Assembly (NCBI GenBank): GCA_008632985.1
Contig: QPGO01000039.1
Coordinates: forward strand, 496,001-560,000
Reading direction: 5' to 3'
Source of the DNA: Psammoneis japonica
Taxonomy: Eukaryota
DNA: 64,000 nt
Part shown: one piece after another, positions 8,601 to 64,000 of the stretch
Position numbering within the stretch: position 1 is the first letter of the stretch
Layout of the letters: the number at the start of each line of letters is the position of its first letter
Notes under the pieces: model-generated
Seen by the model: the letters and a program-made list of their open reading frames with translations, nothing else
Told to the model about the DNA's origin: nothing
Database searches by the model: none
Made by a program: the position numbers and the translations under genes

Positions 8601-8650
8601 CGTCGTTGGCGGAATCGGATCAAAATCACCACGAACATGATGATTCCCTT

Positions 8651-17727: not shown

Positions 17728-18698
17728 GCTCAGTCGGCTTTCAGGGTGAATAAGTTATTTACAGATCACTTCTTATGGGCAGAAACAGCAGAAGGTGATG
17801 AGACTCAGACAGCGCTTTCGCAATGTGGTTTAGCTTCAACAACGCTGTGGCTCTGGCGTCTTGCGTTCGTATTTCTTTACGTCGTGCTTTTTGTACGAGA
17901 ATTCTGAATCGTGTCACGCACTCTTTTCCAACGCAAAATTTTTACGTGATCTCACCGTACAAGTACGGGCGGAGCGACTGTCTGACGGAGGTCCGTCAGG
18001 TTGGTTCTCTACTCACATGAATGAGGTGTCAGCTGCATTTTCCATGCAGGTTTTGCTTGACTTTAATCAACACAAACCTGCATTACAGTGCAGGTCAGCA
18101 AGCTAAAGACCGAGTTGTTTGGGGTCATGTGGTGCTGTCAGCCAGGAAGCCCTTTCGCAGCACGTGCGGTGGTTGTTTTTCTCACCCCTCGTGCACTGGC
18201 TCCCACCACCAACGCAGCAGTTGTTGGAGCCCAACAACATCCCCACTCACATTTGCTCCATGCCTCATCCATTGTGTGTGGTGGGCTGCTACATGGTCTC
18301 CAGGAAAGCTCACTCCACCAGCTTGGCACACAGGATTTTTTGAGAGTGCAACAAAGTTGGCTCTGATGAGATTGCGCACTTTTTGCAGGAATCTGCTCTC
18401 TCGGCATCATGATGGCACGGGTCTGTCTCACACATGTGTGGCCAGCCATGCACTTTGTTTCTGGCAGATGAAACATTCAAGGCACAAATGCTGCAAACAA
18501 GGAAGACTCTCCCCTGCGGCAGCAAGCAAAAAGAGAAAACAAAGAGTGGCTGTCTTTCTGTCACACATTGTGTGTTTCCCATCTCAGACCATGAAGCACC
18601 AGCTGTTCCAAGCAATCAAGAGTTCCATCAGAATTTTTTTGTGAGAGGACATTTGTGCTGAGGGGGGGGGGTGAGATGGTGGCTGAAGCAGGCCACAT

Positions 18699-19116
18699 TG
18701 TTGATGTCTCAGCTTGCCTGTGCACTGTGCTCAAAGATTGAGTGCAAAGAAAAGCAGAACAAATCATGAAAAAGAGGAAATTGTGAGATCAGATTTTGCT
18801 CTGCAATTTTGGGTTTCTCTGAATGAGCTCTCAATGGCCCAAAGCATTTGTGCTGCTGCTCTTGCAGAGCAAAAGCCTTTCGGAGAATCTGTTCCTTGTG
18901 ACGACAGATTGTCCAAATGCAATCAATGTTGACAGCCTGTGTGTCAACATTGTTTGTCAATTGCACCGGTGATTTTAGACATCCAATCAATTCTGTGCAA
19001 TTTGTCTGACCTTTGTGTGCATCCACGATTGTTGCACAATTGACGCACACACAATGATGCAAGATTGTGAATGTGCACAATTTCTTCTGCTGCTCAACAA
19101 CAACGCGCATGCTGCA
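18699..19116 (-). repeat. 3' LTR of the Gypsy element
   Basis: Starts TGCAGCATG directly after the polypurine tract and ends TCAACA on the minus strand. Homologous to 22715-23046. Confidence 0.7.
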
Positions 19117-22100
19117 CTCACCTGTCCCCAACTGCACATTGGAGTCATTTGTTGAATGGAGTTGTTCAATGGACATTGACAGTGTCAACAATGTTGCCAC
19201 ATTTGATCTGCACTGTGCTGTCATTGTGTGCCATTGTTGTCTTTGGGCTGTTCTAATTTTTGAGAATCTTTCTCTGGCAGGATCTTTTCTCCCACTCTGC
19301 ACATGCATGGAGCACATCAAGCATTCTCTCTGGTGTTGTTTTCATTTGTGACATCTTGTTTTCATTTCTGAACAAACTTCCCCAGTCAGTTGTGTGTTGG
19401 ACATCAAAGACTGATTGTCCTGATGCAGCTGGCACAGTGGTGTGACATGTTGAGCACATTGCAAAGGCCGCTGCTGACAGTGTTCCCTCAAATGGATTTT
19501 GTGCATCCAGGGGTGCATTTTGCAAATCAAATGTGCACAGCATGTTGCCCAGTGCTTGATGCACATGCTCAATTGCGGCATTTGCTTGTGGATTTTGTGT
19601 GGTTGTGGGCTTGCATTCAGTGCCACAATCATCTTGAACTGCAGCTCTAAAATGGCACCCAACAAATTCACTTCCCCACAATCACAAGCAGTCAATGATG
19701 GCCAAGGACATCTGCTCAAAGCAACATTCTTTCCAACAGCCCAGCAACAGTCATGGATTCCTTGTTTGGATTTTCTGCTGCTTCAAACCACCCTGTTGCT
19801 GGACCTGTCATTGTCAAACATTTTTCAGGACTGGGGGTTTCTCTCTGCCCTTTCAATGCATTTTGTGTGGTCAAATGAGATCCCCACACACAGTCTTTCC
19901 CATGGCACTGATTCCATGCATCCAGGAGGCAAGTGTCCACATTTCTTTTGTCTCTTCTTAAATTTCTAGCATGCCTCATGCATTTTCTCATGTCTTCATG
20001 TGAGACAGACCACCACAAGGAGTGTTGCAAGATTGTCTCTTCAGCTCTGTTTGTGCCAGGATGCAGAAGGTGTGCATGATGCCAATCTGTCACTGTTTTT
20101 TGTGATGTCTTTGCCATGATGATTTTGTCCTTGTGATGTGTGAGCATTCAATCTTGCTCACCTCCATGAAAAGTCTTCATGTGGTGGCTGGTGTGTTGTG
20201 CCAGACAATTTGGAGAGAGTGTCTTTGCCCCATTTTTGTTCAGCATCAAGAACTTTGTGCATTGATGGAAAGACATTGTTGCTGGATTTGGGTGCAACAT
20301 TGTCAGCCAGTTCTTCATTGCTGAGGTTTTCCCTGGGATCAATTTTCTTCATGGTGAGTTGGCTGTGATCACATCTCTGCAAAATGACACTGGCCTTGCC
20401 CTTGAGATGGATCATTGCGGGGCTGAAATCTTCAATTGTCAGACACCCTCCTTTTCCATTGCAGTGTGTCAAGTCTGCACTCCACTCAGCTCAAAGCTGT
20501 TGCAAAAGGCAATGGGGGTTTGCTGTTTTGCTTCATGACTGCACCCAATTGAGAATCACTTGCATTGGCGCACATCTCAAAGGGTGTGTTGAAATTTGGG
20601 CATGACAACAACACACATCTTTTGACACAATTTGACTCACATTTTGAAGGCATTTTGTCCCATGCTTGTCCATTGCCACTTGACCTTAGATGAGGTGAGT
20701 TTGGCCAAAGGAGCAACATGTGTTTGAGATTGTCAAGGCCACATGTCTTGACAGCAATCAACCACACCAATGAAACATCACAATTCCTTGCAAGTTGCAG
20801 GAGCTGCAATTGCTTGAATTGCCTCCACTTTCTCAGGTGTTGGTCTGACATGCCATTTTGGGCAACATGAAAGCCTGGACAGTCTGCTTCAGACTTGGCA
20901 AAGAGAATGACTTTTTGGCACTCACCTTCAAACAAGCTTGTTCAAGCTGTGTGAACATTGTCTTGAGCTTGCTCAGATGATTTTTGAAGTTGCCTTCAGT
21001 CAGACATGGCATGTTGTCAATGTGATGTCATGCGGCAAGCTCCAATTCTGCCACAAGCTCACTTGTGTGCTCCTGAAAAACATCTCTGGAGCTCCACAAT
21101 CTCCCATTCATTGGGAAACTTCAGCACTCATGCTTGCCCTGTGGCATCGTGGTCATGCACAAATGATGTGTGTGTGGTGTCAATTCAATGTGGCAGTGTT
21201 CCATGTTCAAATCAAGTGAGGTTGCATGCATGAAACCTTCTGATGGTTTCTGCAGAACATCCTGAATTTTTGGCAAAGGATGAGTGCGGGGCATGCATTG
21301 GCCTTCCACTGAGCTCATGGAAGTCAGGCAGAAACTGAGCTTGACAAATTTTTCTTGGGCTGAACAAAGGTTGGAGCTGCCCATTCAGAGTGGCTTGCTC
21401 TTCTCAGGACTCCTGACTCACACAGTTGGTCCACTTTGTTTCTGGCAGTTGCCCATCAGGCTTGTTGTGGTGCTGGAAAAGGTTTGCATGATGCAGAGTC
21501 ATGCCTGATTTCAGTGCAAAATCAGCCGGCTTCTCCATCAAAAAGGAGTTCAAATCTTTTGAGGAGGAAAAGTTCAGCTGCTTCTGTTCCTCTGGGGTTG
21601 GATGCTGTGTCACTGTGGCAGCCACATTGTTGAGATCAGCAGCATGGCAGTTGGCACTGAGGATTTTGTTGATCACATCATCAAGGCCATTCACAGCATT
21701 GGATTCTTCAATGTGGCCAGCAATCAGCTGGAACACTTTGGTGTCAAAGAGTGCATCAACGTTCTTTGTTGGCACAGCTGCATTTTCCCATTTGATTTCT
21801 TCACTCGCAAAATCAAGTGTGTGACTCCAAGGCTGCTTGTCAAGTTGTGTCCCATGGTCATGTCATGTCTTGAAGAAGCAGCAGTGTCATCAACACATGT
21901 GCCATCTTCTCAACCAAGCAATGCTTGTCAAATTCAGGCAGCAAGAATTGAGCTGAGCATTGGCTGTCAGTTGCAAAGAAGCCACTGCCCTTGGTTTCCC
22001 AAGTCTTGGTGGCAGATTTCTCATTTCTCAATTTCTGTGTGAATTTGTGCAAAATTGTGGTTGACAATGTTTTTCTGTCAAGAAGAATGTGCAGAGGCTT

Positions 22101-22714
22101 GTTGTTTTCTCATTTCCCAAGGAAGTGTTCATGTGAGCAATGACTGCTCTGCTTTGGCCCTTTTCCCAGGCTTCCCAACATCCAGTGATGCACAGTCATT
22201 CCTTGGAGTTGCTGCACAAGTCATTTTTCAAACTGACAGTTTTCTACACTGAGGGTGTCTGAGCCACATTCCTCACTCTTGCACTTCTGATTGTTTGTGG
22301 AGGAACTCATCTTGAAAGATTTGTTGACTGCCTGAGTGATCATGGCATTCAACTCTTCTTTTTGAGAGGATTTTTAGCATCACGATGAGACCAGCCATGT
22401 GTGGTTGTTGCTGTTTTGGGTTTTGTTCACCACTCTCTTGGCATTCTTTTGCCAGCCTCTTGATGACCCAGCAGCACTGACCCATGTTGCACCACTTGCC
22501 AGGCTCAGATTGTTTGGCACCAGCTTGGCAACCATTTTGGGACCACAGCAAGATCCATCCTTGGCTTTGGAGCCAGACTTGTTGGCAGCATCAGACTTGG
22601 CATGCATGAGTTTGATCAAACAATGTGTCCTCAGCAACCTCCAGGTCTTCCAAGAATTCTGCCAACTCATCAAAGGTGTGGTCCAAAATTTTGAAACCTT
22701 GTGGGGTTGGCTGA

Positions 22715-23046
22715 CACAGTGCACCATGCTTGAAGAAGGAGTGCAAACAAAAGTGGAACAAAGTGCGAAAAGTGGAAATTGTGAGATTAAATTTCAATCT
22801 GTGATTTTTGGTTTCTCCGAATGAGCTCTCAATGGCCTGAAGCTTCTGCACTGCTTCTGCAGACAAAAGGCCTTTCGGAGCACATGCGATTGATGTTGAC
22901 ATGCAAGATGTCAACATTGTCAATCAACCTCACTTGCAATTTTTGATGTCTGATCAACTCTGTGTGATCATTCTGTCCTGCTGTGGCATGATTGACATGT
23001 GAAAAATGTGCAATCACAGATGTGCGCACAACAGTCGCATGCTGCA
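22715..23046 (-). repeat. 5' LTR remnant of the Gypsy element, fused to mid-gag
   Basis: Shares cgcatgctgca, gaatgagctctcaatggcc, gcctttcggag and ggaaattgtgagat with the 3' LTR. Confidence 0.65.
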
Positions 23047-23229
23047 AAGCTCTTGGAGTTGTCATTGTGTGATGGCAGCACATGTGTGGAGGATGGACAG
23101 ACTGTCAATGACAAGAGGGACAAACCAGAAATGGCGCCCCATGTTGAAAAATTCTTCCTGCTTTCAGCCATTTGTCACAAACAGCTCTCTCACAACTGAC
23201 ACATTGGCTCCTTTTCCCCTGAGGCATGG

Positions 23230-23480
23230 CAGCATTGAGAGCTCATTAAATTGGCTCTGACAAGATTGAAGGGTGCAGCACAGGGTTGCGCCACTCTCAG
23301 TGTGATGGGTGTGGGTCTGTCTTGCACATGCATGACCAGCCACACAACACTTTGTTTTTGAGAGATGAGATGCCTCAGGTGCACACAAACAATGCTGCAA
23401 ACCTGTTGAAGAATGCGAGGAAGATTGTGGCAAAGGGAAAACAGACAGCAGTTGTCTCTTTTTGCTGTTTTGTGTTTCTA
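23230..23480 (+). repeat. Diverged repeat, paired with ~18340-18600; unidentified coding remnant
   Basis: Shared ttggctctga, gggtctgtct, cactttgttt and aatgctgcaaac in the same order. Confidence 0.55.
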
Positions 23481-24543
23481 ACATCTGCAGAAAATGGAGC
23501 ACCAGATGCTCCAACATGCAGCTGAGAGAGAGCTCCACATCAGGAAATTTGCAACATTTGTGCCAGCCAAGGGAGGAGAGGGGTGGTGGCGGCACAACTG
23601 AGGCAGACCACATTGCCAACAGCTCAGCTTGGTGCTTGTTTGTCTCTGAAGCACTGCCAAAAATTCAAAAGTGGTGCTTGTGCACAAGCACCGCCAATCA
23701 TGAGCCTCCCTTCAATCAACTCAACAATGACTCCAAGTCCTCCAGTGGCAGCAACTGGCTGCAGCTTCTCCCTCCTTCTTTGAACAATCAAACAAGCAAT
23801 CAAAATGTTGCAGGTCACAAGAGCATCTGATGAAACTGTCACAACAGAGCTGATCATGTGGCAATTCATCGCATTTTGATGATCATGCTGTTCAACTCCC
23901 CCCATCCTCTGATCTGTTTTTTGTTTTGGGCGAATGCTTTGTGCCACCACAACTCTGGAACTCATCACAGTGTGGCGCATGTTGCCCCGCCGTGCCCTTC
24001 AGCAACATCATCAGCATTGACGTTGACCAGCAACAATTTGTCAAAACATCACGCTCACACTCATCGCTTCTGGCAAACGACATCGTCAAAAGCAACGGCA
24101 AATCACCATTTTTTTTTGTCACGGTGCAGCGTGGAAAAAATTGGTTTTTGTGGTGGCCTGCACCAGAGACAAATGACATCTACACATCAACACATGTGGC
24201 ACAAAGTCAATGTTTCTGCGCACGACACTTTGTTGCTCAGATTCCTTTTTCGGGTTCGAACTTTCAATTTTAACCAACTTGGGTTTTAAATTTGGATTTT
24301 GAACCCAAAAGGGTCCAAAATTGCAATTTTTGACCCGCCCCGAAAACGCGGAGGCAGAACAGCCAGTTCGCATTTCGCATTGAGCCGCAATTTGCATTTT
24401 ACGCTGTTACAAGGTGTGCATCGTCTTCTCAGATGATGCTCTGAGCCTGCAAGCTAAAGACCAGATGGCATGGACCAGCCTGCTGTTGTGTGGTGATTGA
24501 GGTTTTGTGCCACCCCAAATTCAAAAAAACTCAAATGGGCATG

Positions 24544-25800
24544 CCAAACCCACCAAACTTGCCAAACTCGCCAAACCTGCCAAACTCCCCAAGCTGGCCA
24601 AACTTGCCAAACTCACCAAACACGCCAAACTTGCCAAACACGCCAAACTTGCCAAACTCACCAAACTTGCCAAACTTGCCAAACCTGCCAAACTTGCCAA
24701 ACTCAGGAAACTTTCCAAACTTGTCAAACTTGGCAAACTCACCAAACTTGCCAAACTCGCCAAACTTGCCAAACCCACCAAACTTGTCAAACTTGCCAAA
24801 TTTGCCAAACTCGCCAAACCTGCCAAACTTGCCCAACTTGCCAAACTCGCCAAACTTGCCAAACCTGCCAAACTCACCAAACTTGACAAACTTGACAAAC
24901 CTGCCAAACTTGACAAACTCGCCAAACAATCCAAACTTGCCAAACCCGCCAAACTTGCCAAGCTCACCAAATTTTCCAAACCCGCCAAACTTGCCAAACT
25001 CAGGAAACTTTCCAAACTTGTTGCACTTGGCAAGCTTGCCAAACTTGTCAAACTTGTCAAACTTGGCAAACTTGCCAAACCTGCCAAACTTGCCAAACTT
25101 GCCAAGCTCGCCAAACCTGCCAAACTCCCCAAACTCACCAAACTTGCCAAGCCCGCCAAACTCACCAAACTTGCAAACCCTGCCAAACTTGTCAAACTTG
25201 CCAAACTTGGCAAACTGGCCAAAGACGAAGCCCGCCAAACTTGGCAAACTCACCAAACTTGGCAAAACCTGCAAAACCCGCCAAACTTGCTAAACTCAGC
25301 AAACTTGCCAAACTTGTCAAACTTGCAAAACTCACCAAACTTGTCAAACTTGCAAAACTCGCCAAACTTGCCAAACTTGCCAAACCTGCCAAACCTGCCA
25401 AACTCACCAAACTTGCCAAATGCGCCAAACTTGCCAAACCAGCCAAACTCACCAAACTTGCCAAACTCACCAAACCTGCCAAACCTGCCAAACTTGCCAA
25501 ACCCGCCAAATTGGCCTTGCCAAACTTGCCAAACTCACCAAACCCACCAAACCCGCCAAACACACCAAACTTGCCAAACACACCAAACTTGCCAAACTCA
25601 CCAAACTTGCCAAACCCGCCAAACTTGCCAAACTCAGCAAACTTGCCAAACTTGCCAATCTTGCCAAACTCACCAAACCCGCCAAACTTGCTAAACTTGC
25701 CAAACCCGCCAAACTTGCCAAACTTGCCAAGTGCACCAGACTCGCCAAACTCGCCAAACTTGCCAAACTTGTCAAACTCGCCAAACTCACCAAGTGCACT
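24544..25800 (+). repeat. 9-bp minisatellite (CCAAACTTG)n, ~140 units
   Basis: Directly visible tandem array. Unit variants end in TTG, TCG, TCA, CTG, CCG or CCA. Confidence 0.97.
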
Positions 25801-26695
25801 TGCAAAAAACACTCACGTGAATGGCCTTTTGCACATGTCCAGAGTGTGAACACTCAAACATTTTTTTTCATTGGTGCTCAAACCTCCATGCACCATGTGC
25901 CACAATTTCTTCCTGTGAAGTCAGCACCAATTGCTGGTTGTGTGATGAAATCTTGGCTGCAGCCGGCCTTTGTGGGCAGAAAACACCTGCCAGAAAACAC
26001 TGCAAACAAACATTTTGTGTTGTCACACAAACAGCACTGACAGCACATGAATCTTGATGATTTTTGTTAAAAATCAGCACCCATTGTGTTGCGGCTTGTC
26101 ACTTGCTTCTGACCCGATGAAAAATGCCGACAGCAGAGAAACAATGGCGATGTGACGCTGATGCGAGTCTTGTCAGTTTTGCAAAACATCAACATTTGGG
26201 ACATCCCCAGCTCAGTCACAAGTCAGAGACTGAGCCAAAATTGTGCAAATGTCATTTTTTGCATGTGTTTGGATCGCATCATGCGGCTGGAGCACATCGC
26301 CTTTCCAGCAGCGTGCCAGGGCTTGAGGACTTGCGTGCTCAAAACAGTGTGTGCCCTTGTTGCAGAGCACCTCTGAAATGATCTTGTGGTCTGTGTCTTC
26401 TTGTTGCGCTGCTTTTTCTTTCATTTTTGTCAGTCACTAACTTGTTTTCTCCCCCTTCTGGCCTTCAGCAGCAGTGCCAGCGACACTTCTGTCCCCCACG
26501 CACAGTGGCTGCAGATCCACCTGCTTGTGCCAGCCACGCGATGGCATGACGCGGCAGGCGCCAGACAGCCGGTTCGCATTTTTTCTCATCGCTCATCGCA
26601 CCGCAATTCGCATTTCACGCCATTGCGAATCTTGCATCGCAGTCGTCTCCTCTGGATACCGAAGAGAAAGAGAAAGTAAATCATCATTCATAACC

Positions 26696-52910: not shown

Positions 52911-52971
52911 GCCAACCACACTGATGAAGGTGAAAGCAAAAGCTCACATTGTCAAGCTTTGCAGGTTTGGC
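52911..52971 (+). ncRNA. Degenerate type I hammerhead ribozyme in the 5' pLTR
   Basis: CTGATGA core, GAAA-like segment, stem III GCTC/AAGC and outer GCCAA/TTGGC. Stem I is restored when TpA is put back. Confidence 0.6.
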
Positions 52972-55900
52972 AAGACTTTGACTGAGTCTTGTCAGTGCCA
53001 AAGGTGTTTGCACACTTGAAAACCTCAACAGCAGTGTGCACCCAAACAATGATGACAAGCACCAGTGCCTCCAATCAAATCACACCAATGAGGGCCAATG
53101 AAGCTGCAGTGTCATGCACCATGACTTTCGTTGAACCCGATCCAACAACGACATGTTGACAAACTCAAACCATGCCAGGAGCTGATTGAGAAGCAGCCAG
53201 CAGGACTCAGGGGTGCACTCGAGTCCCTCACGACTCGAATGATTTTGCAATCTGCTCAGGTGCAATGGAGGGAGAAAAGAATGCAAGCCTTTGCAGGTGA
53301 ACAAGATCCTCCTTTTGTCCCACATGGCTCAAGGCTCAATGTGGAACTCAAGCACAGCAACAAGCTTCAAGATGATGCAGACACAAAAAAGCTTGTGAGC
53401 AAATTCAAAGACATTGTGGCCAATTTCCAAGAAAAAGGTGTGAAGCTGATGCACAAAATGGCAGAACGTCAACTTGAATTTGCAAAAACAGAAAGAATTT
53501 CTGCACTTGTCACTGCATGCATCGATCTCTTTGAACACCACATGTTCTGTTGCATTGCACATCAAAAAGGAGCATCAAAGCATTCACACAGGCACTTGGG
53601 AGCACTCTGTCTGCTGAAACATGCAAAGAACAAAATTGCAGACACCTTCTGTGTGACCCATCTCAGAGTCAAGCAATGTGTTGTCCCAGCTGAGATCATT
53701 TTGCAGATGCAATCAGATGTGGAGTTAACTGCTCCACCCACCAAAGACACCAACGAAACAGAGTCAAACCCACGCCACTTCACTGACAGCAAAACCAAGA
53801 TCTGTGACACATGGTCACAAGGCTTCAATGCAAGAACACTTTTGGAGAAGTCACCACACGACCACAAAATAAAATCAACCACAAAAACAAAATTGCAAGA
53901 GCCAACATGCAAGTCACCACCAGGTGGAACTCATGCAACAAGAAAGCAGCAGCTGAAGCTGCCGCTGCCACCCTGGAAAATGAGCCATCAGCGCACCGGG
54001 CGCAGCCAAACAAGCTGTCAAAGCTCTTCAAAAACACAGCAGCAGTTAAAAAGGAAGCAAAAAATCTTCGCGGGCAACCAGAAAGCCCTGCCGGCCAAAA
54101 ATGCCACTGCTGCAAAAACAGGAAATGGACCACCACAGAAAAAACAAAAAAACATCAGGAGGCAAGCCTCGCACCAGAAAACAACAGAAAAAACAAGGAA
54201 ATGGAAGAGGCAATCACAGCGCACAGTGCAAAGGTGGGGAAAAAGACTCTGGACATGCACCTGACTTCTGAACTGCTGATTGAGACCACCAACCATCAAG
54301 CCAACAGCTTTTGCAAAAGGATCTGTGGGTTCATGCCAAACCCACCAAACAAAACCCCATGTGGCAAAATGCCATTGATGTGCTTGCTTGGCAATGCTGC
54401 TGCAGTGCAATGCTTCAACTGCCCAATCAATCTGGCTTTCCACAACCTTTGCACAAACCTCCAACCCCCTCCAGGCCTCGTTGCTCTTCTTGGACTTGGC
54501 CACAAGTTTTGCATCAAATGGCCAAGACCACCATCGCACAACAAAAATGGAGCTGAATGACTTTGTTGATCAACTGGCCTTGCAGCCTCTGCCATTTCTC
54601 ATCAATTCCATGGATGCCCCATCAGAAGCCACAACCACATCCCAGGCCTGTGCATCAAGTCAATGTGGGAGCCACCAAAAACAAAAGAAGGCAACTTGGA
54701 ACTGCGTGTGCATGATGGACTTTGCCAACTGTGCTGAACAACTTTGCTGCCAAGCCACAGCAAAACAGCCTTGGCACAACTTGTTGCAACAACAGCGCCA
54801 GCTTTTTTGCTCTCTCAAAGAGGATGGCCAATTCATTGTTTGCTTGAGTGACAAAAATCTTGGACCCATCATCATCAAATGGGCCACGTGCGTCACTCGA
54901 GTCCTCCAAGACCATCTGCTCAACCAGAACAACTGCCAACGATTTTCACCTGCAAAAAAACCAACCTCCTGCAGGATGCAAAGCAACATCTTGTGGATGT
55001 GTGCAATGAAGCCAAGCCTCTCTTAAGCTCCACCAAGCAAAGTTGCTTCAAGCACAGCTTTGACCTGCACCATTGCATCCCGCAATTTTACATCACAATC
55101 AAGGTCCAAAAAATCCCTTGGAAACAAGACCAATTGTCAGTTGTGTGGGCAGTTTTAACAAAATCTTCTCAAACTGGTTGGATGAAAAGATGAAGGAGCT
55201 CTTCACCCTTTCCCACTGATGCATCTGTGATTCCCACCAAGTTCTCATGGATCTGCCAGCACTGGGAACCTTGCCTCCAGGTGCAAAGCTCTTCACCATC
55301 AATGCCATCAGCGTGCATTTGAACATTGACATGAGTCATGCCCTGGAAGTCTTCCAAGACTGGTTCAACACATGCCCAGACAAAATGCCAGCAGGCTTCT
55401 CAATGATTTTTCCCTCTCCACCTCAACTGTCATCATGACACGTGACATTGTCCAGTTTGATGATGCATGCTGGCACCAAACCTGTGGAGCTGCAATGGGC
55501 ACCAGCACAGCATGCATGTGTGCAATGCTGCACAAAGCCCTGCACGAGCGCCAAGTGCTCAAGACATGCTTTGCCACCAACCTTCAGCACCATGGCTGCT
55601 TTGTTGACAACATCCTTGGTGCATGAACAGGAGACAATGAAATGACATGGACAGAGTTCAAAAATGAAATGAACAACTCTGCCCCCCTTGTGCGGGAAAC
55701 TTCCCCACTCTCAACCTCCAACACACATTTCTGGATCTTGAAATCCACATCGGAGCTGACAACAGAATCATCACTCACACACACCAAAAGCCAATGAATC
55801 TCTTTTTGCACATCCCATCTGCCTTGGCACATGCACTGGGAGCACTGAAGAGCATTGTGCGCAGCAACCTCTGGCATTTCTGGACACAAAATTCCAATGT

Positions 55901-56639
55901 GGCAGACTGCATCACTGTTGCACAGAATTTTGTGAACCGTCCAGTCAAAAGAGGACACTGTCAAGCCACCCTGTGTGAGATCTTTGTGCAAGCCGTGCAG
56001 CACCTTGACAACCCCTCTCAACACCACCACTCCAATGCTGCTGCAAACCCAAGCTCTGCATTGTTTTTTTACAGTGAATTTCACCCACAAGGGAAACCCC
56101 ATGTCTCCATCTGACGAGTCCATGACAAAACACTGCTGCAGGGAGTGCAACACACTGGGTTTGACCACTTTGTGCTTGCCTGCTCACAACCAAAAAATTT
56201 GAGAGATGCTTCAATGCAAACTCAAATGCAGGAACCAGAAGGGAAGCATGCATCTAAATGCACAGAGCACTCAGATCCAGAGCTCTTAGTTGGTGACTCC
56301 ATCGCAACGACACACCTCCAGCAAAAAACTCAAATGGGCCACCTTCCTTGCTTTCAGCACTTCGGCTTGCACCCATTTGAGTTTTTTGGGGGTTGCACAA
56401 AACCCCAAAACCACTTTTTACATGCAGCCAGCTCTTTTTAGATGTGTTTTTGAGTGTCAACCCAATCCACCATTGGAAGCACCAAAGCCCACCATTTTCT
56501 CCTCCAGAGTTTTTGGGCCAAGACATCAATGCGTGTGCTTTGTGTGCACTGGCATTTTTCAATGGTCACATCCAAGCTGCAATGGCAACGACCATTAAAA
56601 ACAGCCAATCTCAACATTTTTGGCTCACAAGAAAAACAT

Positions 56640-56693
56640 GCCAACCACACTGATGAAGCAAAAGCTCACATTGTTGAGCTTTGCAGCTTTGGC
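56640..56693 (+). ncRNA. Degenerate hammerhead ribozyme in the 3' pLTR (stem II deleted)
   Basis: CTGATGA followed by the perfect hairpin AAAGCTC-acattgtt-GAGCTTT, flanked by GCCAA/TTGGC. Confidence 0.5.
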
Positions 56694-59600
56694 AAGACTT
56701 TGTCAGAGTCTTGTCAGTGCCAAGGGCATTTGCACACTCAAAAACCTTGGCAGCAGTTGCGGCTCATTGTGGACAGTGCAGGGGCAATGGGTGTTGGCTC
56801 CACCATGTGTCAACTGTGATGCAACAAAGGAGCAGTGGATCAGCTGTCATGTGTGGGATTCTCACCACATCTGTGATGGGGAAGAACAAGATGACATCAC
56901 AAGCAAGAAATGAAAGCAAAAGTGATGCAGTGACAAAATGAATGACAGGGACAAGATTGTGTTGGAGAGCTGCTGCAAGAATGCAGTGTTCAGACAGCAC
57001 AAGTTTCTAAATGACAAGGCCCTCAACAATCACACAATGGAAGGGTTGGAAGGACCATGCTGCCAGAGCTCAGCATGCCCCAAGAAAAGGGAGCATGATT
57101 TTGGGGCACATCAAAGGATGAGGTGCAAAGGCAAACAACAAGAAAGAAGAACAGCGTCAGTGATGAGCTGAACAAAAGTTTTTCCTGAGCAGCACAAACA
57201 AATGGAGTGTGCCATGAACAGGGAACTGGAAAAGAACTGACACACATGCATGCACAGGGCACACAGATCATGAAAAGAAGAAACCACAAGCGCACAAAAC
57301 AATGCCAAGATGCCATCTCTGGAAGACATGCCAGAGGGGCGGAACAACATGATGGCCCAAAGCTGTTTCACCATCATGCAAATCCTGCCACTCATGGTCA
57401 GAAAGACGATGTGGAAGCATTGGCTCAAGAGTTGAGACATTGCTTGAACAAGTTGGCATCTGCAAGTGACGAGGCATTTGGTCTGCCAGTGTTGGAGAAC
57501 AGCTGGAACAAGTGGGCATGCATGCACGGCAGCAAAACAAAGGAAGAGTTGAAGGAATTAAAAAGGAAAGGAGGAGGAATAGACCATGGAAACATTGATG
57601 GAGCACTCACAAAACTTGCATCAGAAATGTTCATGCAGTGACACAAAAAGAAGCCAAGTCATTGACCTGCATTTGTCAATGCAGCACACTGGCATGGATG
57701 CCCACATCAAATGTGGTGGTGGAACCCAAGCTGCAATGAACCCAAAACCTGTGTGGAAAACAAAGGAGGGGCTTGCATTGCTCCATTTGGCCCAACCTGC
57801 AAATTGCCAACCCCTCAGATGCAGGCCACACAAAGTGCCGCAGCTGTGATGATTTCCTTGTTTTCACTGTCGCAAGGTGGAAATTTGACACTCTGCTGTG
57901 GGCTCATTTTCATCATTTGCGCTGGTTGTTGTGCTGGGCATTTGCTTCTGTGCTTCTTTGTCAGAATGTGAGGTGTGGTGTGGTCTAGTCTCAGACAATG
58001 ATGGTCTCTTAGACATGTGGTGCCATGCTGCATGGTGGGAAAGCCACCTGCACACATCTCACCTGGAGCTGGAACAAGCCCAGCAGTCAGAGAAACAAGT
58101 GGGCAACTGCAACTTTGTTGAGGCCTGACAGGTGGCTGGCGCTGTTTGCAGCCATCTCAGTCCATGCAGGAGTGACTCCACTTGTTGGTGCATGAAGCTT
58201 CTTCATTGAGCCAGTCCAAAAGTTGACCACAAGGTTTTGCCCCCCCCCCCCCCCCCCCACTGTTTTTACACAGCGTGCTCTGCGGCACAAGTTCTTCTGC
58301 AGTTTTTGCACCAAAAGGTGAGACAAGCAGTGGATCTGAGATTTGCTGTTGGATTTGCTTGGATTGGGCCAGCTGGATTTCAACTGCGCAACACCCACTG
58401 TGCCAGGGACCTGTTTTGATGACAATCAACAGCCAATGACTTTGCACAACAGCAGTCTGTGCAGCACCTGGGGTGACTGACAGCACTTCTCAGCCATGCA
58501 CCATTGTGCCAGAAAATTCTTTTTCCTGCTTTGGTGGTGCCAGTCTGGAGCACCTCTTCAAGGAAGAGCTCCGCAACCTGCTGACTGAAAGTCTGCAAAG
58601 GAGGCAACCAGGTTGACAGGCATGGTTGTCAAGCTCTTGACTGGCTGGTTTCTTTTTGTGCACAAGTTGCAGCAGTGGTGAGCAGCTGTTCTTTTTTCAA
58701 CTTTGATTTCTCAACTTAGCAGCTGCCTGCAAAAGCAGCACCAATCAACAAGAATGTGAAATGGAGGTGACAAGTGTTGAGAAGTGAGCAACAAAAAACT
58801 CTGCACCTCTTGCAAAGTCAATGTGCAAGGTGGCCAAGCCAGATCTGCACAATGTGTCACTGGCCACACAGGTTGGTTCAGATGCAGCTAATTCAGTGTT
58901 TTTGTTTGTGTGTTGGTTGCTTTTGACTGGGGGAAACAATGGGGTGAAGCAAGTGGCCCAACACAACAAGGGTGCAACAACTTTGGGCCACTTGAAAACT
59001 TGAAAATTGTGGCAATCACCCTCAAGCCAGCCTGCCACACTGGTGTAAAAAAAGGGTGGTGCCTGCACATCAGAGGGGGGTTCCATGCAGGTTTTTGCAC
59101 CAATCAGTTGGGTTTCCCTTCCTCAAATGCAGGGTGACCCACATTTGACACAATGAATCTGCATTTTTTCCACGCAACCCTGCTTGATTTCCACAGTGCC
59201 TGCAGGAATCACAATCCTGCAGGATGGCAAAAACTTCAGTTGAATCTTCCTGGATTTAATTTGTGTTCTTCTGCAGAGGAAACAGCAGACAATTTTTTCT
59301 GAGTTCTTCAAGTGGACATCCCCCCACATGTTCTTGGCACAGGATGTGCCGCACAAACCACAAGCTGGTGTCCATGGGTGATGCTTTCTCTTTCTTTTTT
59401 GTTTGTGCCATTTGCTGCCTCTGTTTTTCCCATGGCAATGCCGTTGTTCAATGACAGCAAAAATTTCAACCTGCAGCTCCAACAACGTCAATGTCCCACT
59501 CAACACGCAAGTTTGTTTGTTCCCAAAATTTTGTTTTGTTCAGTTGGAAAGGGAAACGGAACTTTCTTGTTTGCAATCTTTCCCTTTTGGTGCCATTGTT

Positions 59601-62600
59601 GTTTCATTTTGTGGATGTGGAGCAACACTTCTCCACACACCCATTTGTTGTTTTCAATGCATTGTGGGTTGCTGTTTTTGTCTCCTTCTGGCAGCTCAAA
59701 GGCACACAGGGGATGCCGCCGCCACTCTCATCTGTTGAAAAAGCAGCATCAGAATGCAGTCAAGAGCAGAAAAGGGAAGTCATCATGTTGAGATCTGTCT
59801 TTGTGTTTTTGTGATTCTGCAGCGCCACTTCACGGGCGGGGCTGGTGCATTGGAGATGTCTGTCATGCTGCCAGGGTCCATCCTGTGGCCCCAGTGCTTG
59901 CAAGGGGTGCAGCCAGTTGTCCTGTGCTTTTTGACGGCTTGCCTGACATTGCTGTCAGGGTTCATCATCCCGTGCCCTCCAATTCCATGGGGGGTGCAGT
60001 GATGTCAGTGGATGCACCCTTCAACAAACATGTTGGGGTGCACCCATGCTCCTCCTCACTTTGGGGGTGCAGCCACTGGATCTCACTTTTTGGGGTTCTT
60101 GCAAGCTGGAAAGCATGCTGTCAGGGTTCATCCCATGACTCCCACCTTTGATGGGGGTGCACCACAGCTCTTCAAGGATTTGATTTTGTTTGCATGGATG
60201 ACAGTCTTGATGCATCATCCCACACTTTTGGAGATGGCATCAACAATGTCAGTGGCTTTGTTTCTGCAGACCACTTTGCCAGCTCTCCCATGGTCCATCC
60301 ATCCCACACTCCCCCTCTTTCTTGTGGATGGAACCTCTCTGTGAACCTCACCCAAGAACTTTCCCCTGCAAGAATCCCACTGAGTCCCTGCATGTCTTCA
60401 TCTTCCACCGCTGAGGCCAGGAGAAAAATGGGCGGCAATCAGGTCAGAGACAACATGGGTGGTGGATGAAACAACGACAACATTGCACAACAGTTGTTCT
60501 GAAATTGACCAAATCTCACGCAGTTGTCAGTGCACAAAAGTGGACACTGGTGCACCAGGGAAAGCCATTGTTTTCACTGGCGCAGTGCAGTCTTTTTGGC
60601 AGAGACCACCACAATGAATTCATGGTGTGATGGTGGGGCAGATGGCTTGAAAGAACAGAGTGTGCACATGCACAATGGATGTGTGACACCAACAGACAAT
60701 CAGGCAAAGTCACAAAATCTTTGGACTCTTTGGACCAATGAGAACTCACATCAGAAATTTGAACAAAAAGGGCACAATGCATGAGTGCATTGGAGTGGGC
60801 ACCAGTTGGCCCGGCACGTTCGCAGACAATCTCAGAACTGGCACTTCATTTGCAACTCAGATCTGGTCAGTTGGTTTTCAACTGGTGCATGATGCCCAGC
60901 TGTGGCTGCTGGAGACTTGCCATGTTGAAAATGTGGGCAGCTGGATGATGGCCTTGCTGTCATCCATGCACTGCCTCTGCTCCAGGGCCCTGCTCAGAAG
61001 GGGTGACTGACAGTGCTCCTTGACCACCCACCAAGGCAAAAAAATGTTTTTCCCATTTTGTTGCCAGTCTGGAGCATTTTTTTAATGAGCTCTGCACCCT
61101 GCCGGCCAAAATTGTGAGCTGGAGGGCACCAAGTTCAGCTGGTGCAACTGCTGAGCTCTTGACTGGTTGTTTCATTTTTGCACAAGTTGCCACAGTCCTG
61201 TGAGTTTTTTTTTTTTCAACTTCTTTCAATGCTTTGCAGCTGTGAAAGCAGTGCCAACAAACAAAAATGTGAAGTGGAGGCAAGCAGAGGCAAGAACATG
61301 TGGTGTCAAGAAGGAAGTGGCAAAACATTGTGTGCTTCTTGCAGAAATTGACTTGTTGCACTCAAGCAATTTTTCTGTCTTGTTGCACGACACAATGTCT
61401 GTGCAGAAGGCAGCCAAACCAGATCTGGTGCACACTGACATGTCATGCAGGGCTCATGTGTGCATCAGCATGGTGTGGTCTGACCCGGGCTCTGCACCCA
61501 CCTCCCTGCCAGGGACACAAGTGTCCAGCTGCTCCTCAAGCCCCACACAAGCATTTGCAGGTGCGCAGCCCAGCATGCACAATCAGGCAGCAGGTGACAA
61601 CAAAGAAGTGGCGCTTGTTGCACGTGTGCTGAGCGCTGCGCAAGCAGGAGGAAGGGAGAGCATGTGCATCAGAAGATGCTGCATCTTGCATGCAAACATG
61701 AAGTGTTGGCCAGTTGCACGGGGACTGCTGCTGGGCCAAATGTTGCTCCAAGAGCTTGTGAGCAAAGTGCAGCCAAACAAGTGTGTGTGGCTGCTGCCAC
61801 TCAATTTGCGCTGCTTGAGACACCCCATCTGACTGGATGATTGCGTCCCATCCCCACTTCTTGCTTTGCATCAACTTTGTACAAAAATGCCACAGGTTTG
61901 CCAACGCTGCTGAGAAGCTCCTCTCTTTTTCTTCTCAAACATGTGAAAAGTTTTTCAACATGTGGCTGTTTTACTTTCCACCACCTTGGCTTCTTCCTCG
62001 ACTCCATCATCAACCTCATGCAATTTGCATGCCAAATGAGATCCACAAAAAGTGCAATCAACAAAAGAGAGTCGAGTGGCAGCTTTCTCGCAAAACAACG
62101 AGCAGTTGCTGTCGTTCTGTTGTTGGCGCCCTTGCCACAAATGTTCTTGAACATTTAACGTGATGTCATGTTCGAAACAATGAAGACATCAAAAAACAAT
62201 GAGAACCGAGGACAGAGAGATCAGTCTCACCGCACGCAGACCGCAGCGAATCATCGCAAGACACAATGAAAAACAAAAGAACTGAACTGTTGCTGTGAAC
62301 GAAAAAACAAGAATGTGAGTCATTGCTCAGTCGAGGCTGCTGTGATCCACGGAAAAAAAGTCCCATTGCTGATGCCAGTCGTCACTTTTAGAAGGTTGTG
62401 AATGTTTGCGCAGGGCCCTGAGATTGTGGTTGCGTGAACGACGCGTCTCTTTGCCAAAATAAAGAGTGCCTTCACAAAACTCGCTGAAAGCAGCTCAATG
62501 CAATTGGGCCCTTTTGTGTGTTCTTTTTCGTTGTTGTCATCGTCACATGCTCCTTTGTGCGTTCGATCCACCGGAGAGGTGACAATGTGATGGACGGCAG

Positions 62601-62788
62601 GGGTTCGGGTTCTTTTTGCCCCCAAACACCCTGTCAAATGACTGCATTGATTTGGCGTTTTGTTGTTCTTTTGTCGATCGCAGTTGTCATGACGACACTC
62701 ACAAGACAAAGCGCCTTTCTAAACTTCCGTTGCATTCTGTGTGGGGTGCCCTTTAAAGCGAGGAGCAAGAGAGAAAGCAAAAGAACTC

Positions 62789-63912
62789 ATGGTGACGGGC
62801 AACAGGGAGAATTTCCGTGTGCGCACCATCACAGGGAGCTCAATGGTGCTCCCCACGATCTCGGGTTTTTTGCCAAATTGTGGAAAGCCTGGTGCAGATG
62901 CCTGCAAGATTGCTGCTTACAATGATCTCAAGGGTGTTGAGGCCAATGGACTGGACAGAAACCATGTGATGGTCAACGACATTCAAGCCGCTGACGACAA
63001 TTTCAAGCCCACAGGCAGCAGTGGTGACACCTGCAGTTGTGAGGAATGTGACATGCCGTTCACTGGATCGTTTGATGGTGGCGGACATGCCATTCGCGGT
63101 TTGTCCACATTTCTGGGGGAAGATCACGATTGTGACAGCACCGGCTCGGGTTTGTTTGGTGGTGTCGCTGGTGACGCCGACATCCGCAATCTCATCCTCA
63201 ATGACACCAAAGTTGAACATTGTGGCCACTGTCCAAACCATGCCGGATCACTTGCTGGATGTGTGGATGGTGGCACGATCCATAATGTCGCTGCAAGAAA
63301 TTCACAAGTCGAAGGGGATGTCTGTGCTGGTGGGCTTGTTGGATGGGCAGATGGGGGCAATTTCTCCTGCTGCCAGGTTCTTGGTGGGAAAGCATGTGGG
63401 GATGCAGCTGGTGGTCTTGCGGGATGGATTAAAAATGTTGCCATCAAAGAATGCAGTGTGCAAAACATCTCTCTGAAAGATGGGTGTGAACCGTGGTGTC
63501 ACAGGTCTTTTGGCGGTTTGGTTGGCCGAGCCGACTTCTCAGTCATCAACAATTGCTTTGTGGCTGGTGATGTCACTGTTTTGAGCAATTTGCCTGTGGG
63601 TGGCCTTGTTGGGGAAGCATGGGCAACGAACATGTCAAAGAGCCATTTTCCAGGTGATGTGAAAGGAGGTCACACCGCTGGTGGTCTCGTTGGCATGACT
63701 TACAAATCGTCGATTAAGAGCAGCTTTGCCACAGGTGAGGCCACAACAGAGAAGAGCTTGTGTGACGATGATGTTTTCACAGGTGGATTTGTTGGTCGTG
63801 ACAGCTCCGATGACTGCGAGTTGCGACTAGAGGGCAACCACTGCGTGATGGACCCTGCAGTTGGGGGCGAGCATGAGGCAGCCGACACCGAAGTAAAGTC
63901 GTGGAAAGCAAG
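62789..63912 (+). pseudogene. TpA-hypermutated, truncated paralog of the GLUG gene at 48427
   Basis: Colinear with ~48427-49565. The upstream ~0.8 kb (61950-62790 vs 47600-48430) is also homologous. Confidence 0.92.
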
Positions 63913-64000
63913 TGCAGTGTGCCTCGCTGCTGGACAACACGGCGAGACCGTGTGTGAGCCTCTTGCACGTGGCAACGCAGCATTGTTAACACGTGCCTGG

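What the first reader, a model, noticed from the sequence alone, without database searches (positions are those of the whole stretch)
18090..64000. Repeat-targeted TpA->TpG/CpA hypermutation: a reverse-RIP genome-defence candidate
Seen: three islands in this range, plus one at 0.5-3.05 kb, are strongly TpA-depleted (about 13 TA in 6.1 kb at 18121-24240), while adjacent genes have ordinary TA content. Every island consists of TEs, satellites or duplicated genes. TA is replaced by both TG and CA, meaning A->G on either strand. Established: fungal RIP is C->T and creates TpA; 5mC decay removes CpG only. Neither removes TpA. Inference: a DNA-level process recognises repeated or heterochromatic DNA and drives A:T->G:C at TpA. 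Candidate mechanisms are a DNA adenine deaminase (TadA-derived base editors prefer TA), deamination of a modified A, or miscoding of a modified T. I know of no described natural system with this signature.
Basis: partly seen in the sequence, partly recalled or inferred. Interest (0 to 1): 0.97.

Follow-up and report, generated by a model that had tools for sequence, protein, structure and literature searches.

The report
TpA-erasing hypermutation in diatom repeats
About 40% of this diatom-like DNA stretch lies in sharply bordered blocks where nearly every TA, and most CG, has been mutated to TG or CA, the scar of a rare A-to-G hypermutation reported so far in only one other alga.

Summary
Four blocks (1-3062, 18105-26656, 29646-31703, 50857-64000), about 26 kb in all, hold 97 TA where about 1,060 are expected.

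In every non-satellite block the missing TA+CG roughly equals the extra TG+CA. A paralogue pair gives the direction: of 67 TA in the normal copy, 25 became CA, 21 became TG and 7 were kept. The reverse change occurs at 2 of 291 sites.

Repeat copies differ by CA/TG doublets, so they mutated in place on either strand. Accurate-read contigs cross the block borders at even depth. One of 80 metagenome loci, from a distant diatom, shows the same scar. This is therefore not an artefact.

The signature matches the TpA-only hypermutation seen in Bigelowiella natans mutation-accumulation lines (bioRxiv 10.64898/2026.01.13.699255). Eight literature searches found no report in diatoms.

Targeting looks domain-based rather than RIP-like. 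Only one of the two paralogues is hit, and one block has single-copy depth. A DNA adenine deaminase is the likeliest mechanism, but this is inferred. Verdict: a new member of a very recently described kind, of high interest.

The parts
1..3062 (.). Block A: TA-depleted (O/E 0.14) with CpG mostly kept (0.74). It carries minus-strand ORFs that are pieces of a large TSP type-3 repeat protein gene running off the window.
   Evidence: TA 24 observed vs 105 expected for 300-3050. TSP_3 hit; 20,526 relatives, best a 3,477-aa protein at E 1e-108. Tyr 2 of 361.
18105..24541 (.). Block B: decayed, high-copy LTR-type element(s). TA O/E 0.04, CpG O/E 0.19.
   Evidence: 13 TA in 18121-24240; summed word depth 213-8,860 across the bins from 18439 to 24144, against about 52-57 in flanking genes; joints 18803>22826 and 22762>18795.
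18720..18885 (+). Left LTR-like direct repeat of the block B element; its partner is at 22719-22880.
   Evidence: 78% identity over 166 nt; 8 of 17 adjacent double differences are CA/TG.
22719..22880 (+). Right LTR-like direct repeat of the block B element.
20489..20941 (-). Only recognisable retroelement remnant: a weak RNase H (RT_RNaseH_2) match.
   Evidence: E 5.6e-4, 20.3 bits, below Pfam's cut-off of 29.8.
24542..25793 (+). Satellite of about 139 copies of a 9-nt unit (GCCAAACTC). It is TA-free by its unit, so it is not independent evidence for the process.
25794..26656 (.). Block D: a TA-free stretch from the satellite to the first 180 nt of the FG-GAP ORF. Its last 200 nt are CpG-dense, so the TA-free zone overshoots the CpG-poor zone.
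   Evidence: TA only at 26068 and 26438, then 26657; 18 CpG in 26481-26660. (ORF 26474-29350).
29646..31703 (.). Block E: 1 TA in 2 kb, CpG O/E 0.22, single-copy depth, no recognisable gene or TE.
   Evidence: depth 56-71, and one 3,294-nt contig spans 27632-30887 with 1 difference; no family, no homologue.
50857..61500 (.). Block F: nested direct-repeat (LTR-like) pairs spaced 3.7, 4.6 and 6.8 kb apart. TA O/E 0.05, CpG O/E 0.17.
61501..64000 (+). Block G: the hypermutated copy of a GLUG-motif gene (62087-63912 aligns to 47697-49564). TA O/E 0.10, CpG O/E 0.62. The frame is still open for 250 aligned residues.
47697..49564 (+). Unmutated GLUG paralogue with ordinary TA content, used as the reference for direction and context.

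Best explanation
Certain chromosome domains in this pennate-diatom-like genome are subject to a DNA-level hypermutation that changes the A:T pair of a TpA step to G:C. The domains hold decayed LTR-type elements, a satellite, and whatever unique DNA or genes lie inside or beside them. The change hits either strand at random, giving TpG or CpA, and runs until almost no TpA is left. TAA/TTA contexts, above all TTAA, resist longest. The same domains lose CpG to TpG/CpA more slowly, as expected from deamination of 5-methylcytosine in methylated diatom repeats. The two processes together turn both self-complementary pyrimidine-purine steps into CA/TG and leave G+C content unchanged. Shown here: the direction, the dinucleotide specificity, the strand randomness, in-place action after duplication, sharp domain borders, and presence in a second, distant diatom. 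Inferred: targeting follows silent chromatin rather than sequence homology, and the chemistry is deamination of adenine to hypoxanthine at 5'-TA by a recruited ADAT2/TadA-type deaminase, read as G at the next replication. I put about 0.8 on the process and about 0.4 on that enzyme class.
For: Depletion and bookkeeping: (97 TA observed vs about 1,060 expected in 26 kb; missing TA+CG roughly equals extra TG+CA in each non-satellite block).

Direction. Of 67 TA in the normal paralogue, 25 became CA, 21 became TG, 7 were kept and 14 changed otherwise. Only 2 of 170 TG and 0 of 121 CA are TA in the island copy.

Specificity. A>G is 21-59% per strand after a 5' T and 0-15% after A, C or G.

Strand randomness: (25 runs observed vs 23.8 expected, z 0.35). 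TG and CA counts are near equal in every block except the satellite.

In-place action. CA/TG doublets make up 13 of 20, 11 of 33, 6 of 20 and 8 of 17 adjacent double differences between repeat copies.

Context. The share of surviving TA relative to background is 8.0 for TTAA and 3.0 for CTAA/TTAG, against 0.07-0.26 for ATAC, ATAT and ATAG. TA->TG by 3' base is C 20/35, G 8/23, T 11/39 and A 6/33.

Not an artefact. Contigs of run X1 with word depth 32-57 match the blocks (23234-24288 and 25764-26691 with 0 differences; 16829-18648 with 5; 27632-30887 with 1) and cross the borders.

Second organism. L007 has 0 TA in 1,562 nt, with CpG O/E 0.46 and TG+CA O/E 1.79. Its RRP4 is 56% identical to the window's.

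Precedent. In B. natans mutation-accumulation lines, 230 of 231 mutations in two viral inserts are A>G/T>C, all at TpA.

Domain rather than homology.
Against: No mutation was caught happening here; everything is inferred from scars. No genome is held. I therefore could not test copy number, methylation or chromatin genome-wide, or look for a deaminase gene.

The repeat pair 52101-52647 / 56754-57268 (93% identical) has only 2 CA/TG doublets. That sequence was copied after most of its TA had already gone, so TA-free DNA can still be duplicated.

Run X1 may be the sample the window was assembled from, so it is not an independent individual.

Only 1 of 80 other diatom-like loci shows the scar. 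Those loci are gene-rich, so prevalence is unknown.

Because TpA is palindromic, the sequence cannot tell A>G from T>C chemistry. The context preferences rest on small counts (34-39 sites per class; 97 surviving TA).

The paralogue comparison has no outgroup, so direction rests on the 46-versus-2 asymmetry.
Confidence: 0.78

Rival explanations
1. Same domain-restricted process, but the lesion is on the thymine. A modified T at TpA (a 5-hydroxymethyluracil or base-J-like derivative made by a TET/JBP-type oxygenase) mispairs with G, or is excised and misrepaired, giving T>C.
For: TpA is palindromic, so T>C on one strand and A>G on the other are indistinguishable. From recall: thymine hypermodification is known in dinoflagellates and kinetoplastids, with J in a T-A context in telomere repeats.
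Against: From recall: 5hmU pairs normally with A and is not known to give near-pure transitions. No such enzyme or base was tested here. The B. natans authors favour adenine deamination.
Confidence: 0.1
2. TpA mutations are a side effect of repairing deaminated 5-methylcytosine. T:G mismatches in methylated repeats recruit patch repair with an error-prone polymerase (Pol eta type), which makes A>G errors at WA motifs, as in phase 2 of antibody hypermutation.
For: TpA and CpG loss coincide in the core blocks. From recall: Pol eta has a WA/TA hotspot with A>G bias.
Against: TA loss is strongest where CpG is least eroded: blocks A and G, L007, and the CpG-dense 26441-26657. A after A is not elevated (AAN 5-6 of 58-84), though WA includes AA. 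At TA sites, 46 of 60 changes are the two clean transitions. In B. natans 230 of 231 are. From recall: Pol eta also gives many transversions.
Confidence: 0.07
3. RNA-level A-to-I editing (ADAR-like) of retroelement transcripts, fixed by reverse transcription and reintegration.
For: The 5'-U/T preference resembles ADAR (stated in the preprint's Discussion). Block B holds an RNase H remnant.
Against: The scar covers a host-type gene copy, a TSP3-repeat gene piece and single-copy DNA, stops at sharp domain borders, and interleaves TG and CA site by site with no strand runs. LTR-like pairs differ by doublets acquired after insertion. From recall: ADARs are metazoan.
Confidence: 0.02
4. Sequencing or assembly artefact: a modified base at TpA/CpG in heterochromatin is misread.
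For: The blocks are probably methylated repeats. The assembly platform is unknown.
Against: High-depth exact-word contigs reproduce the blocks and cross their borders at even depth. A symmetric misread base would give all-TG or all-CA molecules, not the interleaved single sequence seen. An independent metagenome contig from another species shows the same scar. The copies also carry transversions and indels typical of old decay. A base read as G by polymerases would become a real mutation at the next replication.
Confidence: 0.02
5. The blocks are foreign or selected DNA that was TA- and CG-poor from the start (viral insert, or selection against TA).
For: In B. natans the hypermutated regions are viral inserts. 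Most block ORFs have no homologues.
Against: A duplicate of a host gene lost its TA in place. Repeat copies diverged by CA/TG doublets. Selection cannot clear TA from silent pseudogenes, and TAY codons became CAY/TGY.
Confidence: 0.01

Closest known systems
TpA-specific hypermutation of integrated viral DNA in the chlorarachniophyte Bigelowiella natans (Mettrop et al., bioRxiv 10.64898/2026.01.13.699255, version of Apr 2026). I read the abstract, Results and Discussion, and ran a term search; the supplements are closed.
   Same: Almost only A>G/T>C, all at TpA, giving TpG and CpA on either strand. It is confined to particular regions (about 1000-fold above the rest of the genome), at least one of them transcriptionally silent and single-copy. 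Genome-wide there are TpA-poor / CpA+TpG-rich clusters enriched in reverse transcriptase and DDE domains, mostly unannotatable. An ADAT2-like DNA adenine deaminase is proposed but not shown.
   Different: The lineage is different (diatom, Stramenopila, versus Rhizaria). The scar here is saturated (TA O/E 0.01-0.05, versus 0.45 for their NCLDV region). The blocks are decayed LTR-type repeats, a satellite and adjacent host-type genes rather than identified viral inserts. CpG is co-depleted here, and the preprint text never mentions CpG. There is no direct mutation-accumulation evidence here. The flank preference (TTAA resistant) is not described there.
Repeat-induced point mutation (RIP) of Neurospora and other fungi
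   Same: A genome-defence-like hypermutation that ruins repeats and leaves a dinucleotide scar in sharply bounded blocks.
   Different: RIP is C>T, mainly at CpA, and creates TpA, which is the opposite direction. It recognises homology and mutates both copies of a duplication; here only one of two paralogues is hit and a single-copy block is hit. The RIP details are from recall and from the preprint's Discussion. Diatoms have RID-related DNMT4 genes of unknown function (PMC9998398, passages only).
CpG decay by deamination of 5-methylcytosine in methylated transposons
   Same: It explains the CpG>TpG/CpA half of the scar in the core blocks. [quoted passage not shown]
   Different: It cannot remove TpA. 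The TA-free zone reaches CpG-dense DNA (26441-26657), and blocks A and G keep most of their CpG.
Adenosine deaminases of the TadA/ADAT2 and ADAR kinds, and TadA-derived adenine base editors (from recall, plus the preprint's Discussion)
   Same: A>I chemistry read as G, with a U/T immediately 5' of the edited A (U33-A34 in tRNA; ADAR's 5'-U preference).
   Different: Their natural substrates are RNA. ADAR editing comes in single-strand clusters, which is not seen here. No such enzyme was located, because no genome is held.

Membership tests
TpA-specific regional hypermutation (Bigelowiella natans type) | Substitutions are almost only A:T>G:C transitions | tested here: met
   at 67 TA sites, 46 clean transitions, 14 other changes and 7 kept. 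The reverse change occurs at 2 of 291 TG/CA sites.
TpA-specific regional hypermutation (Bigelowiella natans type) | Confined to TpA, giving TpG or CpA depending on strand | tested here: met
   A>G 21-59% after a 5' T versus 0-15% after A, C or G; outcomes 25 CA and 21 TG, interleaved.
TpA-specific regional hypermutation (Bigelowiella natans type) | Restricted to particular regions while the rest of the genome is ordinary | tested here: met
   TA O/E 0.01-0.14 inside the blocks and 0.59-0.63 outside, with abrupt borders.
TpA-specific regional hypermutation (Bigelowiella natans type) | Targets are foreign or selfish, silent DNA | tested here: inconclusive
   LTR-like repeats, a weak RNase H remnant, a satellite and high copy depth are present. 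However, two host-type gene pieces and one unidentifiable single-copy block are also hit. No viral origin was found. Silence could not be assessed.
TpA-specific regional hypermutation (Bigelowiella natans type) | De novo mutations observed in real time at about 1e-7 to 1e-6 per site per generation | not testable with these tools
   This needs mutation-accumulation lines or pedigree resequencing.
Fungal RIP | C>T at CpA, enriching TpA | tested here: not met
   The direction is the opposite: TpA is destroyed and CpA/TpG is created.
Fungal RIP | Homology-triggered: both copies of a duplication are mutated | tested here: not met
   Copy 47697-49564 keeps ordinary TA content while copy 62087-63912 is mutated. 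Block 29646-31703 has single-copy depth.
5mC-driven CpG decay | CpG>TpG/CpA with CpG O/E well below 1 in repeats | tested here: met
   CpG O/E is 0.17-0.22 in the core blocks. CG versus TG/CA differences occur between copies. Methylation itself was not measured.
5mC-driven CpG decay | Accounts for the whole scar | tested here: not met
   About 965 TA are missing (97 observed vs about 1,060 expected), which CpG decay cannot remove.
ADAR-type RNA hyperediting fixed by retrotransposition | Clusters of A>G on one strand per molecule; retrocopies only | tested here: not met
   Runs test z 0.35. A gene copy, single-copy DNA and flanks are affected.

The most novel reading that the evidence does not exclude
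Diatoms and chlorarachniophytes share an old, chromatin-guided DNA adenine-deaminase defence. It would be the first natural eukaryotic DNA A-to-I editor used against selfish DNA. It marks silenced domains by erasing TpA, working beside cytosine methylation so that both palindromic pyrimidine-purine steps collapse to CA/TG. The TA-free scar would then serve as a sequence-only map and clock of long-term heterochromatin across SAR algae.
Probability: 0.3. Interest if true: 0.92.

Novelty: new member of a known kind. Interest (0 to 1): 0.8.

Why it matters
A:T>G:C hypermutation aimed at TpA runs against the near-universal GC>AT mutation bias. In the literature I could search, it has been reported only once, in 2026, in a rhizarian alga, and the enzyme is unknown.

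Finding its saturated scar in two distant diatoms shows four things:
- The process is not a quirk of one species.
- It acts on ordinary transposon and satellite heterochromatin and spills into neighbouring genes, turning Tyr codons into His or Cys codons.
- It coexists with CpG decay.
- It can be read from sequence alone.

Diatoms are ecologically dominant and some are genetically tractable, so the enzyme and its targeting signal become findable. If the enzyme is a natural DNA adenine deaminase, it would also interest base-editing work.

There is a practical consequence for annotation. TA-free blocks lack TAA and TAG stops and throw up long false ORFs.

Tried and rejected
No whole genome is held, so genome-wide scans, TE consensus spectra and a deaminase search were impossible.

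Pfam search of block ORFs: I gave 143 of the 195 stop-to-stop ORFs of 75 aa or more listed. The 52 left out were satellite-region frames and the shortest or overlapping ones. The search gave GLUG, TSP_3, one sub-threshold RT_RNaseH_2, and two chance-level DUF hits.

Homologue searches with the long block ORFs 53125-54261(+) and 30693-31451(-) found nothing. I read these ORFs as by-products of missing TAA/TAG stops.

There are no tRNA genes at the borders.

Sequencing runs: no RNA holder is listed. Run X2 behaves like cDNA (an 84-nt GT..AG skip at 16751-16836). It gave almost no cover on the blocks or on the FG-GAP gene, and I draw nothing from that lack of cover. Differences between the window and X1 contigs inside block B include CA/TG doublets at 20370/1, 21616/7 and 21767/8. 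I cannot tell alleles from paralogues, so I do not use them as evidence of ongoing activity.

Scan of 80 metagenome loci: 8 low-TA 1-kb windows were found, 5 in L007 and 3 in L053. L053 has 71-73% G+C with CpG O/E 1.3 and is not the signature. Four CpG-poor windows with normal TA content in L021, L026 and L043 are uninformative.

Earlier notes of this scan hold nothing on this genome or on diatoms. The TpA-worded notes concern phages and did not affect my reading.

One literature query was rejected for syntax and was not re-sent.

Also considered and rejected: biased gene conversion (G+C is unchanged and CpG falls), UV TA photoproducts (these would not be domain-specific), and selection against TA (silent decayed DNA).

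Full report
**1. The observation**

Sliding 1-kb windows show four blocks where TpA almost vanishes: 1-3062, 18105-26656, 29646-31703 and 50857-64000.

TA O/E is 0.01-0.14 in the blocks and 0.59-0.63 in the three gene-rich stretches between them. Against the background O/E, the blocks hold 97 TA where about 1,060 are expected. Per-block Poisson P runs from 8.5e-10 to 2e-139.

TG and CA are both raised, to O/E 1.5-2.0 from about 1.15, and are about equal to each other outside the satellite.

CpG O/E is 0.17-0.22 in the cores (18100-24500, 29700-31700, 50750-61500). It is only 0.62-0.74 in the two edge blocks that carry host-type genes (1-3050, 61501-64000).

In every non-satellite block the missing TA+CG roughly equals the extra TG+CA: 126/137, 528/558, 42/52, 169/175, 895/885 and 134/154. 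The satellite block gives 77/46, but its composition is set by its 9-nt unit. Both self-complementary pyrimidine-purine steps have therefore been converted to CA/TG, which also explains why G+C stays at 45-52%.

Borders are abrupt. TA stops or resumes at 3063, 18104, 26657, 29645, 31704 and 50856.

**2. Organism and contents**

No whole genome is held.

The genes between the blocks are ordinary eukaryotic genes with long exons: JmjC, PQ-loop, RRP4, an AlkB-like oxygenase, FYVE, FG-GAP, an amino-acid transporter, Asp/Asn hydroxylase, FGE-sulfatase and GLUG. RRP4 finds 1,080 relatives. The named ones among the best 120 are pennate diatoms (Staurosira, Nitzschia, Fistulifera, Seminavis) at 54-60% identity, and the best unnamed hit is 67% identical.

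- **Block B (18105-24541).** It has LTR-like direct repeats at 18720-18885 and 22719-22880 and one sub-threshold RNase H match. Summed word depth in run X1 is 213-8,860 across the bins from 18439 to 24144, against 52-57 in flanking genes. Solo-LTR-like and tandem-like joints are present. I read it as a decayed high-copy LTR-type element.
- **Satellite (24542-25793).** A 9-nt unit repeated about 139 times. It is TA-free by its unit and so is not independent evidence.
- **Block F (50857-61500).** Nested direct-repeat pairs spaced 3.7, 4.6 and 6.8 kb apart.
- **Block G (61501-64000).** A copy of the GLUG gene at 47697-49564.
- **Block A (1-3062).** A piece of a large TSP type-3 repeat protein gene, with 20,526 relatives and a best hit of 3,477 aa at E 1e-108.
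- **Block E (29646-31703).** Single-copy depth (56-71), with no family or homologue.

'TE, satellite or duplicated gene' therefore holds for B, F, G and the satellite. It is unproven for A and not supported for E.

**3. Direction and signature**

The GLUG pair aligns over 1,793 columns at 83% identity. The fates of the dinucleotides in the normal copy were:

| Dinucleotide in normal copy | Sites | State in the block copy |
|---|---|---|
| TA | 67 | 25 CA, 21 TG, 7 TA, 14 other |
| TG | 170 | 2 TA |
| CA | 121 | 0 TA |
| CG | 77 | 46 CG, 13 TG, 6 CA |

- **Specificity.** Read per strand, A>G is 21-59% when the 5' base is T and 0-15% otherwise. G>A is 0-19% in every context.
- **Strand.** TG and CA outcomes interleave along the gene, with 25 runs against 23.8 expected (z 0.35). 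Single events hit either strand, not one strand processively.
- **3' base.** By the base 3' of the A, TA>TG is C 20/35, G 8/23, T 11/39 and A 6/33. The base 5' of the T matters less (26-41%).
- **Surviving TA.** Of the 97 TA left in the blocks, 27 are TTAA and 24 are CTAA/TTAG, which is 8.0 and 3.0 times their background share. ATAC/GTAT, ATAT and ATAG/CTAT are nearly extinct at 0.07-0.26.
- **Protein level.** The mutated copy stays in frame for 250 residues at 64% identity, with Tyr replaced by His or Cys. The block A ORF has 2 Tyr in 361 residues against 2.2% in its relatives, whose Tyr most often aligns with His. That last count is redundant, coming from 1,933 overlapping HSPs.

**4. Mutation in place, over a long period**

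Between repeat copies inside the blocks, adjacent double differences are dominated by CA versus TG:

| Repeat pair | CA/TG doublets | All adjacent double differences |
|---|---|---|
| 52647-53035 vs 56378-56757 | 13 | 20 |
| 51323-51965 vs 58129-58772 | 11 | 33 |
| 58470-58767 vs 61000-61280 | 6 | 20 |
| LTR-like pair of block B | 8 | 17 |

A doublet of this kind means an ancestral TA or CG mutated independently, on different strands, after the copies separated.

One result points the other way. The 93%-identical pair 52101-52647 / 56754-57268 has only 2 such doublets. That sequence had lost most of its TA before it was duplicated, so TA-free DNA can still be copied and the process predates some duplications.

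**5. Not an artefact**

Run X1 gives exact-word contigs up to 315 kb long, with word depth 32-57 on the window's single-copy stretches. That requires accurate reads. Its contigs match the blocks as follows:

| X1 contig span | Differences from the window |
|---|---|
| 23234-24288 | 0 |
| 25764-26691 | 0 |
| 16829-18648 | 5 |
| 27632-30887 | 1 |

The last three run from normal DNA into a block within a single contig.

X1 may be the assembly's own sample, so this tests the reads and not a second individual.

A symmetrically modified base misread by polymerases would yield all-TG or all-CA molecules. The sequence seen is a single interleaved one.

An independent check comes from a scan of JGI/ENA metagenome contigs with an RRP4 alignment of 28 sequences. 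It returned 80 loci totalling 525,832 nt. One of the 80, L007, has no TA for 1,562 nt where 77 are expected at O/E 1. Its CpG O/E is 0.46 and its TG+CA O/E is 1.79, next to ordinary genes. L007's RRP4 is 56% identical to the window's and 58% to that of Seminavis, so it is a different, distant diatom. The other 79 loci are gene-rich and show nothing, so prevalence is unknown.

**6. What is in print**

Eight full-text searches were answered. They found one paper with this signature: Mettrop et al., bioRxiv 10.64898/2026.01.13.699255. I read the abstract, Results and Discussion and ran a term search. I did not read the Methods, and the supplements are closed.

In mutation-accumulation lines of Bigelowiella natans, 231 of 302 nuclear mutations fall in an integrated giant-virus region (single-copy and silent) and a virophage region. 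Of those, 230 are A>G/T>C and all lie at TpA. Rates are about 1000-fold above background. The effect appears in only some lines: 11 of 15 for the giant-virus region and 6 of 15 for the virophage region. Genome-wide there are 124 TpA-poor / CpA+TpG-rich clusters, enriched in RT and DDE domains. The authors propose an ADAT2-like DNA adenine deaminase. The text mentions neither CpG nor diatoms.

No search found a diatom report. Hoguin et al. [quoted passage not shown] They also note that diatoms carry RID-related DNMT4 genes of unknown function.

**7. Mechanism**

Shown here: a DNA-level, domain-restricted, strand-random TpA>TpG/CpA process, with slower CpG>TpG/CpA decay in the same domains.

From, -ln(survival) for TA against CpG is 1.5 vs 0.3 in block A and 1.8 vs 0.45 in block G. 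In the saturated cores it is 2.6-4.2 vs 1.5-1.8. Both losses may simply track time spent silent, with TA lost about 4-5 times faster.

The two processes can be separated. The TA-free zone includes 26441-26657, the CpG-dense start of the FG-GAP ORF. TA also stops at 29645, while CpG density stays normal to about 29850.

Inferred:
- **Targeting follows a silent-chromatin domain that spreads about one nucleosome beyond the repeats, not homology.** Only the paralogue beside the repeat block is mutated, and a single-copy block is hit.
- **The chemistry is adenine deamination at 5'-TA.** Hypoxanthine pairs with C. From recall, TadA/ADAT2 edit A34 after the invariant U33, and early TadA-derived editors preferred YAC. 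The TAC maximum fits that loosely, on small numbers.

The rivals are thymine-side chemistry, Pol eta-type repair synthesis, RNA editing, artefact and intrinsic composition. They are weighed in their own sections.

**8. Limits**

- No outgroup for the paralogue pair.
- No methylation, chromatin or expression data.
- No genome, so no enzyme candidate.
- Context preferences rest on tens of sites.
- The flank table of the preprint could not be seen.

**9. Verdict**

This is a real and striking scar of a process that has just been described in one other SAR alga. In diatoms it appears to be unreported. It is saturated here, coupled in space to CpG decay, and spills into genes. I class it as a new member of a known kind and score interest at 0.8.

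Noticed in passing
L007:199-1759: A metagenome contig from a different, distant diatom (RRP4 56% identical to the window's) has 1,562 nt without a single TA. Its CpG O/E is 0.46 and its TG+CA O/E is 1.79, next to ordinary genes. Pfam finds nothing in the block.
   Followed up: partly
window 26441-26657: The TA-free zone runs about 200 nt into the CpG-dense start of an apparently intact FG-GAP gene (ORF 26474-29350). TpA loss therefore overshoots the CpG-poor zone and touches a normal gene.
   Followed up: partly
window 52101-52647 vs 56754-57268: This 93%-identical direct-repeat pair has only 2 CA/TG doublets, unlike its neighbours. It was duplicated after most of its TA had gone. The order of repeat pairs in block F (C A B ... 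B' A' ... C') is mirrored although all are in direct orientation, and I did not resolve that layout.
   Followed up: partly
window 18000-64000, TA-poor blocks: Without TAA and TAG stops the blocks throw up long ORFs (up to 379 aa at 53125-54261) that have no homologues. Gene callers are likely to annotate false genes here.
   Followed up: yes
window blocks B, E and F: GpC O/E is raised to 1.25-1.31 in the blocks against 0.91-1.01 outside, and GA/TC is lowered. This could be a by-product of GTA>GCA and TAC>TGC; it was not tested.
   Followed up: no
window 24542-25793: A satellite of about 139 copies of a 9-nt unit (GCCAAACTC; also read as an 18-nt period) sits between the LTR-type element and the FG-GAP gene. 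Many rearranged joints within it appear in run X1.
   Followed up: no
window 27116-27444: A 168-nt tandem duplication (2 copies, 87% identical) lies inside the FG-GAP ORF.
   Followed up: no
window 16751-16836: A contig of run X2 skips 84 nt with GT..AG ends on the minus strand, inside the FYVE gene. X2 therefore behaves like cDNA although it is listed as 'DNA?'.
   Followed up: no
window 3385-5256 and 15094-16065: A JmjC/cupin gene starts about 320 nt from block A, and an AlkB-like 2OG-Fe(II) oxygenase gene lies about 2 kb from block B. This is probably coincidence, but both are chromatin or nucleic-acid oxygenase families.
   Followed up: no
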